A stretch of 64,000 bases of DNA, from NCBI GenBank assembly GCA_041659785.1, contig JBAZXO010000001.1, positions 19,795-83,794 of the forward strand, in the 5' to 3' direction. Made by a program: the position numbers and the translations under genes. The DNA comes from Minisyncoccota bacterium. GTDB lineage: Bacteria > Patescibacteriota > Minisyncoccia > Phycocordibacterales > UBA9973. The notes below the pieces were generated by a model, which was given only the letters and a program-made list of their open reading frames with translations, searched no databases and was not told the DNA's origin. Of the stretch, positions 49,037 through 52,593 are shown in pieces (the stretch's first letter is position 1; every line of letters begins with the position of its first letter).

Positions 49037-49987
49037 ATGTCTAAAAAAGTCTTTTTGTCGGGTGTTCAGCCATCTGGAAAACCCCATATTGGTAATTATT
49101 TTGGAGCAATGAAGCAGTTTGTCGATTTGCAAAATGAGCATGAAGGTTATGTTTTTATTGCAGATTATCATGCTATGCATTCGTTGCGGAATCCAAAGGA
49201 GATGAATGAAAATATAAAAAGCGTTTTGCTTGATTATTTAGCTATTGGACTCGATCCTGAAAAAGTAACATTTTTTAAACAAAGTGATATTTCTGAACAC
49301 ACTGAACTCGCTTGGATTTTCGATACTATTACAACTATGCCATTTTTAATGCGAGCTCACGCTTTCAAAGATGCGCAAGCAAAAAATAAAGAAATTGATG
49401 TGGGTACTTTCAATTATCCAGTATTAATGGCTGCGGATATTTTGATGTATGGTCCAGACATGGTGCCAGTAGGAGCCGATCAAAAACAACACGTAGAAAT
49501 TGCTCGTGACATAGCAGAAAAATTTAACAATGTTTATGGAGATACCTTCAAGCTTCCTGAGCCAATGATATTGAAAGATGTCGCAATTGTGCCAGGTACT
49601 GATGGACGAAAGATGAGTAAGAGCTACAACAACACTATTCCACTCTTTGCAGAATATGAAGAAATAAAAAAGTGTGTGATGAGTATTGTCACAGACTCTA
49701 GTGGGGAGCTTCCAGTGAATGTATATGCTATCCACAAGCTTGTCCGTCCTGAAAGTGAATTAAAGAAAATTTATGAAGAGAAGGCTGGTAAGTACAAAGA
49801 GCTTAAAGAAATTTTAATAGAAGATTTAGAGAAATTTATCGCACCACTCCGCGAAAAAAGAAAAGAATTTGAAAAAGATATTCCTAAAGCACTTGCAATC
49901 CTAAAAGCTGGTGGTGAAAAAGCAAAAAAAGTCGCCTCCACAAAGATGGAAGAAGTCCGTGAAAAGGTTGGAGTAAACGTTTACTAA
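49037..49987 (+). CDS. trpS: tryptophanyl-tRNA synthetase
   Basis: GVQPSGKPHIGNYFGA (HIGH-like), KMSKS, 316 aa. Confidence 0.9.
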   Translation: MSKKVFLSGVQPSGKPHIGNYFGAMKQFVDLQNEHEGYVFIADYHAMHSLRNPKEMNENIKSVLLDYLAIGLDPEKVTFFKQSDISEHTELAWIFDTITTMPFLMRAHAFKDAQAKNKEIDVGTFNYPVLMAADILMYGPDMVPVGADQKQHVEIARDIAEKFNNVYGDTFKLPEPMILKDVAIVPGTDGRKMSKSYNNTIPLFAEYEEIKKCVMSIVTDSSGELPVNVYAIHKLVRPESELKKIYEEKAGKYKELKEILIEDLEKFIAPLREKRKEFEKDIPKALAILKAGGEKAKKVASTKMEEVREKVGVNVY

Positions 49988-50111
49988 GGCTTGTTTTTTC
50001 TTGAATATATGACATAATAATGTATTCCTAGATGGAATGATTTTTGCCCTTCGTCAACTAAATATTAACTGATCCGGCAGCCCCGGAAACACATAAAAAA
50101 GGAGAAGTCCT

Positions 50112-50300
50112 ATGAATCAGCAACCTTGGCAAACCTGTAAAGTTTTAATAGTGCCCTCTGGAATGGCCTTATTTGATCTTCCTTTGTGTATCATTGAGCC
50201 TTTCGGTCACGAAGAACTTAATGATAAAGGACCCCCTATTCTTATTAAAGAAAGTTGTGATGGGTTGTGGCATTATTATCCACCCCCAAATTTCGTTTAA
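50112..50300 (+). CDS. small hypothetical protein (62 aa) in a GC-richer islet, preceded by an SD and a conserved leader motif
   Basis: aaggag, 7 nt, ATG. The upstream tccggcagccccggaaacac motif is repeated before the next ORF. Confidence 0.4.
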   Translation: MNQQPWQTCKVLIVPSGMALFDLPLCIIEPFGHEELNDKGPPILIKESCDGLWHYYPPPNFV

Positions 50301-50345
50301 TAAAACTGCTCCGGCAGTCCCCGGACACAAGAAAGAAGGTGTGTC

Positions 50346-50693
50346 ATGAAGGTAAATCCAAAGAAAAGACAAAAAAATATATTGGATTTTTGGTGGTGGA
50401 TAAGCATGTGGTTAAATACGGCAGATTGTGTACCCAACATGGGTGAGCTAACTGTACCCTCTCGTATTTTTTATCTCCCATGCGGATGCATGAGGAGGTA
50501 CAGGAGCGATCCAAGCTTCCGCCTTTTCTACCAGAATGGGCAATGGGTACATTATTGCCCTCACAATAATGAGATTCCCAACAAGGGTCGCGGAACTCCA
50601 ATGATTCCACCAGAGAAGGCTCCTCAAGCAGAGATCAGGAATCCCTATCCTCGTATCCTTGATCATCTCGATCTTCCCATCGATGACATCTAA
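50346..50693 (+). CDS. small hypothetical Cys/His-containing protein (115 aa)
   Basis: gaaggtg SD, then ATG. Upstream motif tccggcagtccccggacacaag. Cys residues in CVP, CGC and HYCPH contexts. Confidence 0.4.
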   Translation: MKVNPKKRQKNILDFWWWISMWLNTADCVPNMGELTVPSRIFYLPCGCMRRYRSDPSFRLFYQNGQWVHYCPHNNEIPNKGRGTPMIPPEKAPQAEIRNPYPRILDHLDLPIDDI

Positions 50694-50695
50694 AC

Positions 50696-51088
50696 GTGTT
50701 CGGCGTTTTCCGAATAATGGGAAGAGAGCCCAGCAACTCTCACGAACAAGAGGTTCCAATGCAAGAGAAACCTTTTACTCCTTTAACCCCAGTTGAATCC
50801 GAGAATTGGCTCAAAGAACATGCCGGTTCATGGAGGAGATTCCTGACAGTACCGCGAGGATTCGTTTTCTCGTGTTGTGGAGAGGTAAAGGGGGTTGGCA
50901 ACAACCACGAAGAGGACATCATCAAAGCCAAAGATGGATGGGTTCACAAAACTTCCAAATGTCGGGAAATTATCCTAATGGGATATCCGGCAGTGATGGA
51001 CAAAGAGTCCAATTTCCGTCGTTGGCAGATTGAAGAAGTAAGAAAAAAAATTCGTCGAGAAGAAAGGCGCCCTTATTTTGGCGGATAA
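50696..51088 (+). CDS. small hypothetical protein (130 aa), basic C-terminus; the start could be GTG 50696 or ATG 50717
   Basis: Directly follows the previous stop and is followed by a strong terminator; about 47% GC. Confidence 0.35.
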   Translation: MFGVFRIMGREPSNSHEQEVPMQEKPFTPLTPVESENWLKEHAGSWRRFLTVPRGFVFSCCGEVKGVGNNHEEDIIKAKDGWVHKTSKCREIILMGYPAVMDKESNFRRWQIEEVRKKIRREERRPYFGG

Positions 51089-51108
51089 CCTTCTAGAAAT
51101 TGATCACA

Positions 51109-51143
51109 AGCGGACGTTCCCAGGAACGCCCGCTTATTTTTTT
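51109..51143 (+). terminator. strong rho-independent terminator closing the three-ORF islet
   Basis: aagcggacgttcc-cagg-aacgcccgctt hairpin, then a T7 run. Confidence 0.75.
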
Positions 51144-51186
51144 CTCTATTTTTATTTTTTGTTTTATGTTAAAATATTTCAGTACT

Positions 51187-51252
51187 TGTCCCGTTAGAAA
51201 TTCAACGGACATGTCATAATAAATGGGTTTATTAGTTTAAATTTCTAATGGG
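51187..51252 (+). promoter_or_regulatory. structured leader: cccgttagaaatt (51190-51202) pairs with aatttctaatggg (51240-51252) right up to the aspS ATG; a competing local hairpin is gtcccgtt/aacggac
   Basis: Read directly. The same cccgttagaa / ttctaacggg-ATG arrangement occurs before murG (63558-63672). Confidence 0.55.
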
Positions 51253-52593
51253 ATGAAAAATCGTATTTATATTAAGGACTTGAAGGACAATGTCGGCAAG
51301 GAAATCATCATAGCTGGATGGGTAGACGTCAGGCGTGATCAGGGTAAAATGGTATTTTTTGATATGCGAGACATGACGGGTAGGGTTCAGTGTGTTGTAT
51401 TACCTAGCCATATAGAAGCTATTGAAAAAGCAAAAGAAGTAAGGCTCGAATGGGTTCTCAAAATGACAGGAGTAGTAAACAAACGCCCAGAGAAAAATAT
51501 TAAACAAGGTGTATTAAATGGCGACATTGAACTCGAAGTTTTAAATATAGAAATTCTAGGAGAAGCTGCACCACTTCCTTTTGATATGTCTTTAGATGGA
51601 TACAATCTGGACTTGGTCACAGAGTTAGATAATCGCGCGCTCGTTTTACGTCATCCGAAAGTTCAAGCAGTTTTCAAGGTTCAAGAAACGATTATAGATT
51701 CTTTTAGAGAATTTATGAAACAAAATTTATTTTTTGAATTTCAAGCTCCATCCATTACGCCCGCAGTGGCCGAAGGTGGAAGTGAAGTTTTCCAAATTGA
51801 TTATTTTGATAAAAAGGCATATTTGACTCAATCTCCTCAGCTTTACAAGCAAATCGTGATGACTGCTTTTGAGAGAGTTTTTTCTGTTAATAAAATTTTC
51901 CGCGCTGAACCAAGCGCTACTACGAGACATTTGACGGAAGTTGTCTCTCTAGATGCCGAGATGGCATTTATCGATGGATGGGAAGATGTTCGCGATATGG
52001 CAGAAGGAACTGTGAGGTTTATTTTAGAAAAAGTAAAAGAGAAAAATTCTGAACACTTAAAACTCTTAAAAGCAGAACTTCCAGTGATGATAGAAAAGAC
52101 ACCGACACTTTCTTTAGTGGAGGCACAACAAAAAATATTTGAGAACTTTAATCGTGATGTAAGGGGAGAAAAAGACCTAAATGCACAAGATGAGAGGGAA
52201 ATCTGTGAAATTATAAAAAAAGAAACAGGTTCTGATTTTGTTTTCGTTTACGGTTATCCAACAATGAAAAAGCCTTTTTATGTTTATCCAAATCCAGAAA
52301 ATCCAGAATTCAACGAAGGAGTGGACTTACTCTGTCGTGGACTAGAATGGCTCTCTGGTGGACGCAGAATAAATAAATATGATCAGCTGATGGAACATGT
52401 GAAGTTATGGAAGATGGATCCAAATAAAATTAAAATGTTTTTAGAAGCATTTAAATACGGTGTTCCACCTGAAGGTGGTTTTGCTTTTGGATCTGAGCGT
52501 ATTACTATGCAGCTTTTAGGACTTAAAAACGTTCGCGAAGCTTCAATGTTCCCCAGAGACATGGAGAGAATAGATGAAAGATTTTCAATTTAA
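51253..52593 (+). CDS. aspS: class IIb aspartyl-tRNA synthetase (archaeal/eukaryal-type; possibly non-discriminating)
   Basis: N-terminal OB fold; motif-2 FRAEPSATTRHLTEVVSLDAEMAF; QSPQLYKQ; motif-3 GFAFGSERITMQLLGL..FPRD; 446 aa. Confidence 0.75.
   Translation: MKNRIYIKDLKDNVGKEIIIAGWVDVRRDQGKMVFFDMRDMTGRVQCVVLPSHIEAIEKAKEVRLEWVLKMTGVVNKRPEKNIKQGVLNGDIELEVLNIEILGEAAPLPFDMSLDGYNLDLVTELDNRALVLRHPKVQAVFKVQETIIDSFREFMKQNLFFEFQAPSITPAVAEGGSEVFQIDYFDKKAYLTQSPQLYKQIVMTAFERVFSVNKIFRAEPSATTRHLTEVVSLDAEMAFIDGWEDVRDMAEGTVRFILEKVKEKNSEHLKLLKAELPVMIEKTPTLSLVEAQQKIFENFNRDVRGEKDLNAQDEREICEIIKKETGSDFVFVYGYPTMKKPFYVYPNPENPEFNEGVDLLCRGLEWLSGGRRINKYDQLMEHVKLWKMDPNKIKMFLEAFKYGVPPEGGFAFGSERITMQLLGLKNVREASMFPRDMERIDERFSI

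What the first reader, a model, noticed from the sequence alone, without database searches (positions are those of the whole stretch)
50051..51143. Compositionally distinct cassette of three small Cys-containing ORFs with a duplicated 5' leader motif, canonical SD sites and a strong terminator
Between trpS and aspS the GC content rises to about 45%. Every frame is open, which is the hallmark of GC-rich DNA. Only the plus strand has SD-ATG starts. ORF1 and ORF2 are each preceded by tccggcag(t)ccccgga(a/c)aca...aaggag-like sequence (50070-50108 and 50312-50345). The unit ends in a 12-bp-stem/T7 terminator. The products (62, 115 and 130 aa) have no domain I recognise but contain CxC / HYCPH / SCC Cys clusters. 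Unlike most genes in the window, these use strong SD sequences. This is a candidate novel accessory module: a small metal-binding protein set, a toxin-immunity pair, or a peptide precursor with partners.
Basis: partly seen in the sequence, partly recalled or inferred. Interest (0 to 1): 0.7.

Follow-up and report, generated by a model that had tools for sequence, protein, structure and literature searches.

The report
Shuffled small cysteine-protein operon, Nomurabacteria
Between two tRNA-synthetase genes of an uncultured Nomurabacteria (CPR) bacterium lies a real three-gene operon for small, cysteine- and tryptophan-rich proteins of undescribed families; conserved RNA hairpins frame its gene modules, which are swapped between close strains, and what the proteins do is still unknown.

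Summary
Window 49991-51143 is a self-contained plus-strand operon: promoter, three Shine-Dalgarno-led small ORFs and a strong terminator, between trpS and aspS of a Candidatus Nomurabacteria genome. It matches no known RNA. All three ORFs evolve as coding sequence: substitutions pile up at third codon positions and dN/dS is 0.07-0.35. ORF3 starts at 50759 (109 aa), not at 50696.

ORF2 and ORF3 are paralogues. They belong to an undescribed family of about 100 aa with the pattern W..LTVP..PCGC..GWVH..C followed by a basic C-terminal helix. About 20 relatives turned up among 1.8 billion proteins. Wherever a flanking gene is visible they lie in the trpS neighbourhood, with one exception. The family has no match in Pfam, NCBIfam, PHROGs or PADLOC, no PDB sequence match and no fold match.

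The duplicated leader is a conserved 5' UTR hairpin. A second conserved element, with compensatory changes, follows ORF2. Module order differs between near-identical strains, and the breakpoints fall on these elements.

The cassette looks foreign to its genome: GC3 is 0.42-0.46 against 0.28, and it uses Shine-Dalgarno sites where 54 of 63 host genes have none.

In relatives, but not in the window, the same family sits behind a well-supported Phe-codon leader-peptide attenuator.

Protein function is unproven. My best guess is zinc-dependent nucleic-acid binding.

The parts
49991..50018 (+). Putative promoter: -35 TTGTTT (49991-49996), 16-nt spacer, extended -10 TGaCATAAT (50010-50018). Predicted transcription start near 50025.
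   Evidence: Read. The block CTTGAATATATGACATAAT is identical in L002 and L029 and nearly so in L001 and L086. The consensus scan did not flag it because the -35 matches only 3 of 6. No transcript data.
50067..50102 (+). Leader repeat copy 1. Hairpin TCCGG-CAGCC-CCGGA at 50073-50087, then an A-rich tract and the Shine-Dalgarno site AAGGAG (50099-50104).
   Evidence: Repeat family D3. The motif is unique to this region in the window. Fold energy -10.5 kcal/mol, z = -2.3. The same motif precedes small ORFs in L001, L002, L029, L055 and L086.
50112..50300 (+). ORF1, 62 aa. It belongs to its own small family (conserved C9, C49, W53-H54-Y55).
   Evidence: Homologues in L029 (81% aa) and L002 (41% aa). 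dN/dS 0.07-0.35, with substitutions concentrated at third codon positions. Not significantly related to ORF2/ORF3 (hhalign E = 0.06).
50304..50339 (+). Leader repeat copy 2. Hairpin TCCGG-CAGTCC-CCGGA at 50310-50325, then GACACA...UGUGUC, which can enclose the Shine-Dalgarno site AAGGTG (50336-50341).
   Evidence: The 3' 30 nt are identical to the L001 ORF2-homologue leader, although the coding sequences are only 48% identical at the protein level. Homology with L029 ends exactly at 50325.
50346..50693 (+). ORF2, 115 aa. Member of the new family, in the subfamily with an N-terminal FWWW/FWxW helix and the motifs LTVP, LPCGC and QWVHYC.
   Evidence: Homologues: L001 (48%), P0005/L086 (52%), L004 variant (52%), P0007, P0010, P0014. 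dN/dS 0.23-0.26. GC3 0.457 against a host value of 0.277 +/- 0.05.
50697..50747 (+). Conserved 3'/intercistronic RNA element. Hairpin TTCGG-CGTTTT-CCGAA (50699-50714). Helix GAGAG (50724-50728) with CTCTC (50737-50741). A possible pseudoknot partner TGGG (50718-50721) with CCCA (50729-50732). Followed by the ORF3 Shine-Dalgarno site AAGAGG (50748-50753).
   Evidence: Conserved after family genes in L001, L004, L086 and L090/91; its second helix (GAGAG/CTCTC) recurs in L087 and L126. The first hairpin recurs after unrelated small ORFs in L006 and L066. Stem variants TTCGG/CCGAA, CTCGG/CCGAG and CTTGG/CCAAG are compensatory. G.U variants of the second helix fit RNA on the plus strand. Single-sequence folding is not significant (z = -1.2).
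50759..51088 (+). ORF3, 109 aa (corrected start). Paralogue of ORF2 with the motifs NWL, LTVP, CCGE, GWVH, C and a basic C-terminal helix.
   Evidence: Homologues P0003 (70%), P0004 (67%), P0006, P0008. Paralogy with ORF2 shown by BLASTP clustering and by HMM. dN/dS 0.14-0.20. AlphaFold2 mean pLDDT 78.6.
51108..51143 (+). Intrinsic terminator: 11-pair stem with one mismatch, then T7.
   Evidence: -16.4 kcal/mol, z = -4.4, 0 of 200 shuffles fold as well. Conserved in L001 and L004.

Best explanation
Window 49991-51143 is an independently transcribed, Shine-Dalgarno-dependent operon of three small cytoplasmic proteins. It sits in a recombination hotspot downstream of trpS in a Candidatus Nomurabacteria (Patescibacteria/CPR) genome.

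Shown:
(1) The three ORFs are real genes under purifying selection.
(2) ORF2 and ORF3 are paralogues of an undescribed, clade-restricted family of about 100 aa. Its most conserved features are an N-terminal W-containing helix, LTVP, a (P/C)CG(C) knuckle, GWVH, a distal Cys and an Arg/Lys-rich C-terminal helix. ORF1 belongs to a separate small family.
(3) The gene modules are framed by conserved untranslated elements. One is a 5' hairpin, TCCGG-loop-CCGGA, placed 12-20 nt before the Shine-Dalgarno site. The other is a 3' hairpin plus helix after ORF2.
(4) Module content and order differ between strains whose flanking genes are 92-100% identical, and the breakpoints fall on these elements.
(5) ORF2 and ORF3 differ from the host genes in GC3, and all three ORFs differ in translation-initiation signals.

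Inferred:
- The conserved UTR blocks act at the RNA level, in mRNA stability, processing or translation control.
- Because they are the only conserved sequence between otherwise unrelated modules, they also serve as the homology patches at which modules are deleted, duplicated and exchanged.
- The ORF2/ORF3 family binds one zinc ion through CxC...H...C and binds nucleic acid through its basic C-terminal helix.
- In many relatives the family gene lies directly behind a Phe-codon (sometimes Ile-codon) leader-peptide attenuator. Its role is therefore most likely tied to amino-acid or translation stress. In the window that control has been replaced by a plain promoter plus the hairpin leader.
For: Not an RNA family: no Rfam hit at gathering score or at E <= 10 apart from terminator look-alikes.

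Coding: third-position excess (for example 22/18/45 for ORF3) and dN/dS 0.07-0.35 for all three ORFs, against 0.05-0.09 for trpS.

Organism and synteny: 80 loci recovered with TrpS are Nomurabacteria/Paceibacterota, and the trpS-aspS gap ranges from 4 bp to 4.9 kb.

Paralogy and family: one BLASTP cluster; HMM hits at 1e-17 to 1e-34 only in this locus type; 18 hits at E <= 1e-3 among 1.84 billion representatives; C40, G41, W61 and H63 are invariant in 18 sequences.

Location: the family gene lies between trpS and aspS in L002, L014, L020, L029, L038, L043, L087 and L088, and in the same neighbourhood in L125 and L126.

Leader: the motif is unique in the window. It is present before different gene families in L001, L002, L029, L055 and L086. 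Hairpins of the form YYCGG-loop-CCGRR are 6.4 times denser in the gaps than in the flanks.

3' element: compensatory stem variants.

Breakpoints: at 50325, 50103/50305 and about 50679. L004 carries a 52%-identical ORF2 next to a 100%-identical ORF3.

Foreign composition and Shine-Dalgarno use.

Fold: ORF3 model has mean pLDDT 78.6, with an N-terminal helix, a small sheet and a long C-terminal helix.

Attenuator in relatives.
Against: - No experiment or transcript data. The promoter is a reading and was not called by the consensus scan.
- The 5' hairpin shows almost no covariation: the stem is nearly invariant. Its structure is therefore conserved but not proven, and copy 2 can fold differently.
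- Zinc binding is a motif inference. One family member (L020) lacks the cysteines, and no zinc-finger profile reaches threshold.
- The link to amino-acid stress comes from relatives. The window itself has no attenuator.
- One family member lies next to gyrB rather than trpS.
Confidence: 0.55

Rival explanations
1. Conflict module: the small proteins are a toxin-antitoxin or immunity set, or a phage-defence or anti-defence set, and an arms race keeps them variable.
For: Strain-level cassette turnover and a mosaic ORF2. Nonsynonymous rates 4-6 times that of trpS. Foreign GC3 and Shine-Dalgarno usage. The location is a hotspot with variable cargo.
Against: No PADLOC or PHROG hit and no relatives on viral contigs. 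ORF2 and ORF3 are paralogues, not a complementary pair. No fixed partner gene exists: single family genes stand alone in L088, L043 and L014. dN/dS stays well below 1. The family has held the same chromosomal neighbourhood across TrpS divergence down to about 78%.
Confidence: 0.15
2. Passive cargo: a remnant of a mobile element or phage that landed in a permissive intergenic hotspot. The repeated leader is only a by-product of tandem duplication, and the module has no host function.
For: GC3 of 0.42-0.46 against 0.28, and Shine-Dalgarno-led starts in a genome that mostly lacks them. The gap is empty in many relatives, at 4-50 bp. The family is very rare in 5.8 billion proteins.
Against: Purifying selection acts on all three ORFs. 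The leader is identical over 30 nt between orthologues whose synonymous sites are saturated. The 3' element shows compensatory changes. No integrase, transposase or phage gene lies next to it, and there is no viral match. In relatives the family is wired to a conserved attenuator.
Confidence: 0.15
3. The region is a large structured non-coding RNA and the ORFs are accidental. The fact that all frames are relatively open would then come from GC-rich structured RNA.
For: The region has the fewest stop codons over six frames in the window. Local hairpins are present. Gene callers disagree in relatives: a minus-strand call was made in L001.
Against: Substitutions between relatives concentrate at third codon positions of the plus-strand ORFs, reading frames are kept, and protein-level similarity survives saturated synonymous change. 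There is no Rfam match. The protein family is detectable by HMM in distant genomes.
Confidence: 0.03
4. Integron-like cassette array or RiPP precursor cluster.
For: An array of short orphan ORFs behind one promoter with a repeated structured element at module borders. The products are Cys-rich.
Against: The borders lack attC features: there is no GTTRRRY/RYYYAAC core, and the repeat is a 15-16 nt hairpin inside a 5' UTR. No recombinase or modifying enzyme is adjacent. The proteins are about 100 aa with a conserved, confidently predicted fold, not a leader-core peptide.
Confidence: 0.03

Closest known systems
Integron / super-integron gene-cassette arrays
   Same: A row of short, mostly orphan ORFs read from one upstream promoter. 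Cassette content differs between close strains. A repeated element able to form a hairpin sits at the cassette borders.
   Different: There is no attC architecture or core sites, and no integrase was seen. The repeat is a 15-16 nt hairpin that is part of the 5' UTR, directly before the Shine-Dalgarno site. Exchange looks like homologous recombination at short conserved blocks. The array is anchored beside trpS.
Small zinc-ribbon / zinc-finger 'micro-proteins' of bacteria and archaea (for example Pfam HVO_2753_ZBP, Zn_Ribbon_TF, Cas12f1-like TNB)
   Same: Size under 120 aa. Paired Cys/His knuckles (CxC ... H x3-4 C; CxxC in sister families of relatives). A basic tail that suggests nucleic-acid binding.
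   Different: No profile reaches its cut-off; the best is E = 0.0018 for a relative's 66-aa protein, which is not in the window. The ligand spacing and the flanking helices are unlike any PDB or BFVD structure. One member lacks the cysteines.
Leader-peptide transcription attenuators (pheL/pheST, trpL, ilv leaders). This applies to the relatives' element only.
   Same: Own promoter. A 24-31 codon ORF with a run of 2-6 Phe codons (Ile in two copies). Four segments with mutually exclusive 2:3 and 3:4 pairing, and a U-run terminator. The stop codon falls about 10 nt after segment 2.
   Different: No Rfam leader family matches. It occurs in a CPR lineage. It precedes small orphan proteins rather than biosynthetic or synthetase genes. 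The peptide C-terminus RRLIFAL is itself conserved. It is absent from the window.
Intercistronic mRNA stabiliser and processing hairpins (REP-like stem-loops, 5' stabiliser hairpins)
   Same: Short GC-rich hairpins placed between cistrons and at 5' ends of an operon mRNA.
   Different: Here the loop sequence (GGCAG) and the distance to the Shine-Dalgarno site are conserved across unrelated genes, and the motif is confined to this one locus type.

Membership tests
Known structured RNA (any Rfam 15 family, including RNase P, tmRNA, riboswitches, leaders) | Covariance-model score at or above the family's gathering score | tested here: not met
   Whole window at gathering score gave only five tRNAs elsewhere. 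For 49900-51300 at E <= 10, only terminator look-alikes far below threshold.
Protein-coding gene (each of ORF1-3) | Substitutions between relatives biased to third codon positions, reading frame kept, dN/dS below 1 | tested here: met
   differences by codon position are 8/6/26 (ORF1), 25/23/53 (ORF2) and 22/18/45 (ORF3); dN/dS 0.07-0.35.
Zinc-ribbon / zinc-finger domain families (Pfam) | Profile match above the gathering score | tested here: not met
   best E-values 0.08-0.2, all below the cut-offs.
Zinc-ribbon / zinc-finger domain families (Pfam) | Four conserved metal ligands | tested here: inconclusive
   C40 and H63 are invariant, and the neighbouring Cys and distal Cys are near-invariant in 18 sequences. 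The L020 member has none. Metal content is not testable here.
Integron cassette array | attC sites (57-141 nt imperfect palindrome with RYYYAAC / GTTRRRY cores) at cassette 3' ends | tested here: not met
   Borders 50301-50345 and 50694-50758, read, carry no such cores. The repeat is a 36-nt unit with a 15-16 nt hairpin.
Integron cassette array | Adjacent IntI tyrosine recombinase | not tested
   The neighbours are dnaB, trpS and aspS. The other ORFs of the 64-kb window were not profiled.
Toxin-antitoxin / anti-phage defence systems (PADLOC-DB) | Profile match to a known component, and a fixed gene partnership | tested here: not met
   No PADLOC hit at E <= 1. Partners vary between strains. 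ORF2 and ORF3 are paralogues.
RiPP precursor cluster | Short precursor with conserved leader and variable core, plus a linked modifying enzyme | tested here: not met
   No enzyme gene in the unit. Conservation spans the whole proteins. ORF3 has a confidently predicted folded domain.
Leader-peptide attenuator (relatives' element) | Short ORF with a run of regulatory codons, alternative antiterminator/terminator pairing supported by covariation, and presence in the window | tested here: not met
   In relatives the first two features are met. The peptide is ...NSYFFFFSP..RRLIFAL*. The 2:3 helix is 92.6% paired, 7 of 11 pairs have compensatory changes, and 0 of 500 shuffles reach this. In the window no copy was found, so the window feature is not a member.

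The most novel reading that the evidence does not exclude
The locus is a self-contained RNA-protein regulatory cassette system particular to Nomurabacteria. In this reading, the small CxC...H...C proteins recognise the conserved 5' (TCCGG-CAGNCC-CCGGA) and 3' (hairpin/pseudoknot) elements of their own and sister cassette mRNAs. The same elements act as portable recombination joints that let modules shuffle without an integrase. The whole set is an output of ribosome-mediated, Phe/Ile-sensing attenuation. That would be the first such attenuator described in the Candidate Phyla Radiation, and it would tie an orphan protein family to aminoacyl-tRNA supply next to trpS and aspS.
Probability: 0.15. 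Interest if true: 0.75.

Novelty: new variant of a known kind. Interest (0 to 1): 0.5.

Why it matters
CPR bacteria carry many orphan genes; about 7.7% of a Patescibacteria gene set belongs to novel families (PMC10849945). Almost nothing is known about how these genes are regulated.

This locus gives a concrete, testable case:
- an undescribed small-protein family with a probable metal site and no detectable fold relative;
- conserved untranslated RNA elements at which gene modules are exchanged between strains;
- in relatives, a leader-peptide attenuator with strong covariation support, in a lineage with few known regulators.

It also shows Shine-Dalgarno-led genes in a genome whose genes mostly lack such sites, which is useful for gene calling in these genomes. 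Gene callers miscalled this region in at least one relative.

If the proteins bind the hairpins, this would be a compact new post-transcriptional module. If not, it remains a well-documented orphan accessory operon.

Tried and rejected
- Known RNA: Rfam at gathering score and at E <= 10 found nothing.
- tmRNA or tRNA: none in the region.
- Whole-region folding of either strand was uninformative: similar energies and no shuffle control above 1 kb.
- Protein profiles: Pfam, PHROGs, NCBIfam and PADLOC gave nothing above threshold.
- PDB by sequence: nothing.
- AlphaFold2 of ORF2 with a 5-row alignment gave pLDDT 46.6 and was unusable.
- Phage origin: tblastn against INPHARED and three IMG/VR protein scans were negative.
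- Two longer DNA motifs were absent from IMG/VR. The 33 hits to the short hairpin motif lie in unrelated, mostly GC-rich phage contigs (GC 0.43-0.68 in all but one), lack the leader context and are chance matches.
- ORF3 family in GTDB species genomes by peptide pattern: none. The metagenome scan returned only the window's own contig.
- ORF1 as a third paralogue of the ORF2/ORF3 family: hhalign E = 0.06, probability 0.9%; rejected.
- The window's leader as a decayed copy of the relatives' attenuator: nhmmer score 0.4 bits, E = 0.06 in an 815-nt search; not supported.
- Integron attC cores at module borders: absent on reading.
- Literature searches on Patescibacteria leader peptides and small zinc-ribbon proteins returned nothing relevant.
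Full report
**What is in the sequence**

The stretch between trpS (49037-49987) and aspS (51253-52593) holds three plus-strand ORFs. GC content is 44.2% over 50112-51088, peaking at 48%, against 36.5% for the window. Only 0.6% of equal-sized windows are as GC-rich.

The claim that every frame is open is an overstatement, since each frame has 11-19 stops. The underlying signal is real, though. The region has the fewest stop codons over six frames in all 64 kb: 84 against 122 +/- 13.

The duplicated leader is confirmed. Units 50067-50102 and 50304-50339 are 72% identical. Their core, CCGGCAG(N)CCCCGG, occurs nowhere else in the window, against 0 expected.

Each ORF has a 5-6 nt match to AAGGAGGTG at the right distance.

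The terminator (51108-51135 plus T7) folds at -16.4 kcal/mol with z = -4.4.

**RNA or protein?**

No Rfam family matches at gathering score, or even at E <= 10 apart from terminator look-alikes. There is no tmRNA or tRNA here.

Relatives settle the question. Homologous ORFs were found on contigs L001, L002, L004, L029, L086 and L090/91. Against them, substitutions concentrate at third codon positions (ORF1 8/6/26, ORF2 25/23/53, ORF3 22/18/45). dN/dS is 0.07-0.35 while synonymous sites are near saturation; trpS gives 0.05-0.09 on the same contigs. All three ORFs are therefore genes under purifying selection, evolving 4-6 times faster than trpS at nonsynonymous sites.

Homologues begin at MQEKPF, so ORF3 starts at ATG 50759 (109 aa) with its own Shine-Dalgarno site AAGAGG. 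The 130-aa reading from GTG 50696 runs through a conserved non-coding element.

**Organism and locus**

Eighty loci recovered with the window's TrpS come from Candidatus Nomurabacteria / Paceibacterota MAGs. The arrangement of dnaB (minus strand), trpS, then a class IIb synthetase is widely kept. The trpS-aspS distance, however, ranges from 4 bp to 4.9 kb.

The gap is a hotspot with variable cargo. It holds a TrpR/YerC-like gene in 12 loci, PRPP synthetase in 10, anthranilate-synthase-like genes, ABC transporters and many small ORFs.

**The proteins**

ORF2 and ORF3 fall into one BLASTP cluster with small ORFs from the same gap in L014, L020, L029 and L043. HMMs built from them find members only in this type of locus, and none elsewhere in the window.

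The word-indexed search of 5.8 billion proteins found only five sequences. An exhaustive profile search of 1.84 billion representatives found 18 at E <= 1e-3, of which 14 are small proteins of 82-150 aa. One carries an NCBI name from Candidatus Nomurabacteria.

The family pattern runs as follows: an N-terminal helix with a conserved Trp, then LTVP, (P/C)CG(C), about 16-20 residues, GW(V/I)H, 3-4 residues, Cys, a Pro, and an Arg/Lys-rich tail that often ends in FF or YF. C40, G41, W61 and H63 are invariant in 18 sequences. One member (L020) lacks the cysteines.

Where context is visible, the gene lies between trpS and aspS (L002, L014, L020, L029, L038, L043, L087, L088) or close by (L125, L126). 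One lies next to gyrB (L127).

Nothing reaches threshold in Pfam, NCBIfam, PHROGs or PADLOC, or in PDB by sequence.

ORF1 has its own three-member family (81% identity in L029, 41% in L002). It is not significantly related to ORF2/ORF3.

The cassette proteins hold 3.5% Cys, 3.8% Trp and 10.1% Pro, against 0.5%, 0.9% and 3.6% in the host genes.

**Untranslated elements**

*The 5' motif.* The sequence (CTG-N-TCCGG-CAG-N-CC-CCGGA, an A-rich tract, Shine-Dalgarno site, ATG) precedes ORF1-type, ORF2-type and two other small-ORF families in L001, L002, L029 and L086 (alignment A6). A more distant relative (L055, TrpS 75%) has it with other loops.

Its 3' 30 nt are identical between the window and L001 ORF2 leaders, although those proteins are only 48% identical and their synonymous sites are saturated. 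The leader is therefore under strong constraint.

The stem itself hardly varies, so the structure is conserved rather than proven. Copy 2 can also fold as ACUGC/GCAGU plus a hairpin that encloses the Shine-Dalgarno site.

*The 3' element.* This second element (50697-50747) follows ORF2-type genes in the window, L001, L004, L086 and L090/91; its second helix and possible pseudoknot recur after family genes in L087 and L126. Its first hairpin also follows unrelated small ORFs in L006 and L066.
- The first stem occurs as TTCGG/CCGAA, CTCGG/CCGAG and CTTGG/CCAAG, with compensatory changes at two pairs.
- The second helix, GAGAG/CTCTC, has G.U variants (GAGGG, CTTTC, CTCTT). These fit an RNA on the plus strand.
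- TGGG/CCCA changing to TAGG/CCTA would fit an H-type pseudoknot. This rests on few sequences and on my own reading, not on a formal test.
- Hairpins of the form YYCGG-loop-CCGRR are 6.4 times denser in the gaps than in the flanking DNA of the loci.

**Module shuffling**

| Contig | Module order |
|---|---|
| window | P-[hp]ORF1-[hp]ORF2-IGR-ORF3-T |
| L029 | P-[hp]ORF1-[hp]59aa-64aa-T |
| L002 | P-[hp]ORF1-ORF3-[hp]59aa-88aa-T |
| L001 | P-[hp]ORF2-IGR-[hp']102aa-ORF3-T |

P is the promoter, hp the 5' hairpin, IGR the 3'/intercistronic element and T the terminator.

BLASTN places the breakpoints on the conserved elements:
- Homology with L029 stops at 50325, the last base of hairpin 2, and resumes at 51128.
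- The ORF1 module (50103-50305) is exactly the unit missing in L001.
- L004 is 99-100% identical from 50679 onward, but its ORF2 is only 52% identical.

The flanking AspS proteins are 96-100% identical in the relatives where aspS is visible (L001, L004, L029); in L002, DnaB is 96.5% and TrpS 93.6% identical. The turnover is therefore recent.

**Foreign character**

ORF2 and ORF3 have GC3 of 0.457 and 0.418, against 0.277 +/- 0.050 for 63 host genes. ORF1 is host-like at 0.302. Together with the Shine-Dalgarno usage, this suggests either exchange with a different gene pool or a special expression regime. No phage or viral-contig relative was found.

**Side finding in relatives, not in the window**

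A unit of about 130-180 nt, with its own promoter and terminator, occurs in about 25 copies. All are on the plus strand and nearly all are in the trpS gap (more in L126 and L127).

It encodes a conserved 24-31 codon peptide, (M/V)NKNIQaNsYFFFF..SP..R(R/G)LIFAL*, with a run of 2-6 Phe codons. The L014 copy and one L126 copy are Ile-rich instead.

Segment 2 (GAAGGCUG) can pair with segment 3 (CAGCCCUCUAA), which is also the 5' arm of the terminator. On 22 sequences this 11-pair helix is 92.6% paired. Seven pairs carry compensatory changes (26 cells), and 0 of 500 shuffles reach this.

This is the anatomy of a ribosome-mediated attenuator. No Rfam family matches it, and I found no paper on such attenuators in Patescibacteria.

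Within 30-140 nt downstream lie small ORFs of several families, including the ORF2/ORF3 family (L014, L020, L087, L088, L127). In L055 the attenuator is followed by the TCCGG...CCGGA hairpin, a Shine-Dalgarno site and an ORF. The window has no copy, and its leader is not detectably derived from one.

**Mechanism**

*Shown:*
- The unit is a terminator-bounded set of three conserved small genes.
- ORF2 and ORF3 are paralogues.
- Conserved 5' and 3' untranslated elements frame the modules.
- Module exchange happens at those elements.
- Composition and translation-initiation signals are atypical.

*Inferred:*
- The elements work in the mRNA, in stability, processing or translation. As the only shared sequence between unrelated modules, they also provide the homology for recombination.
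- The family binds zinc through CxC...H...C and binds nucleic acid through its basic helix.
- Its role is linked to amino-acid or translation stress, because relatives place it behind a Phe/Ile attenuator beside two synthetase genes.

I put 0.55 on this package. The descriptive part is about 0.85 likely and the functional part about 0.3.

*Rivals:*
- A conflict module (0.15): no profile hit, no fixed partner and dN/dS below 1 argue against it.
- Passive mobile cargo (0.15): argued against by purifying selection, constrained UTRs and attenuator wiring.
- A large ncRNA (0.03): contradicted by the codon-position pattern.
- An integron or RiPP cluster (0.03): defining features absent.

**Comparison and novelty**

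The unit works somewhat like an integron cassette array. It has one promoter, short orphan ORFs, repeated structured borders and strain-level turnover. It fails the attC test, and no integrase was seen.

The proteins resemble small zinc-ribbon micro-proteins, but they match no profile or structure.

I rate it a new variant of a known kind: an orphan accessory operon with an unusual UTR-framed modular build and an undescribed protein family. Interest is 0.5. It is solidly real and new at the family level, and the attenuator in relatives adds value. Function is unproven, however, and orphan small proteins are common in CPR genomes (PMC10849945).

**Limits**

- Most relatives are short metagenomic contigs.
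- The metagenome and GTDB scans were capped.
- The afdb50 fold library was unavailable.
- The 5' hairpin and the pseudoknot lack formal covariation support.
- There is no expression data.

Noticed in passing
L002 3099-3281; L029 6951-7133; L088 4752-4959; L087 4792-4955; L020 3109-3295 and 3829-3924; L055 5780-5939 and 6266-6433; L126 1169-1294 and 1677-1856; L127 105-282 and 742-888; others: Relatives carry a conserved attenuator-like leader that the window lacks. It has its own promoter and a 24-31 codon ORF...NSYFFFF(FF)SP..RRLIFAL*, with a run of 2-6 Phe codons (Ile-rich in L014 and one L126 copy). Its antiterminator helix has 7 of 11 compensatory pairs (92.6% paired, 0 of 500 shuffles), and it ends in a U-run terminator. 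Small orphan ORFs follow it. No Rfam match and no paper found.
   Followed up: yes
window, all genes: 54 of 63 long ORFs in the window have no match of 4 nt or more to AAGGAGGTG in -18..-4, including trpS and aspS. The genome seems to initiate translation mostly without Shine-Dalgarno pairing, which makes the Shine-Dalgarno-led cassette genes stand out.
   Followed up: partly
window 51185-51252: A 68-nt stretch between the aspS promoter-like TGTTAAAAT and the aspS start is present in the window and L029 but absent in L001 and L004 (the window-L002 alignment also breaks here, with only ~8 nt in L002). It contains an imperfect hairpin, GTCCCGTT...AACGGAC. It could be an insertion or an aspS leader element.
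   Followed up: no
L029 6001-6948 compared with window 49037-49987: L029 has DnaB 96% and AspS 98% identical to the window, but TrpS only 80%. The C-terminal third of TrpS is nearly identical and the rest divergent. The recombination breakpoint therefore lies inside trpS, and the hotspot extends into the synthetase gene.
   Followed up: no
L008, L016, L024-L026, L034, L044-L048, L057; L087 4359-4646: Twelve relatives encode a TrpR/YerC-YecD-like protein (PF01371 in L087) in the gap downstream of trpS, directly after trpS in most. Others carry PRPP synthetase or anthranilate-synthase-like genes in the same gap. This suggests an aromatic-amino-acid theme for the hotspot.
   Followed up: partly
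L002 4730-4996; L006 7144-7344; L026 7977-8135; L029 8299-8493; L086 160-378: A second small-protein family occupies the same cassettes, with the pattern C..H...F.C..CG......AN.LS...C. It gives weak, sub-threshold matches to zinc ribbons including the Cas12f1-like TNB domain (E = 0.0018). A third family of 59 aa (CC...CxxC) is in L002 and L029.
   Followed up: partly
L001 387-683 (minus strand call) against L001 248-529 (plus strand): The public gene call on this relative picked a minus-strand ORF across the ORF2 homologue. Because stops are depleted in all frames, gene callers miscall this region. Protein databases therefore under-represent the family.
   Followed up: partly
L004 2-193 against window 50346-50693: Contig L004 (GCA_900218215.1) carries an ORF2 variant only 52% identical at the protein level. 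It sits directly next to an intergenic element, ORF3, terminator and aspS that are 99-100% identical to the window. This is a sharp mosaic boundary near 50679.
   Followed up: yes
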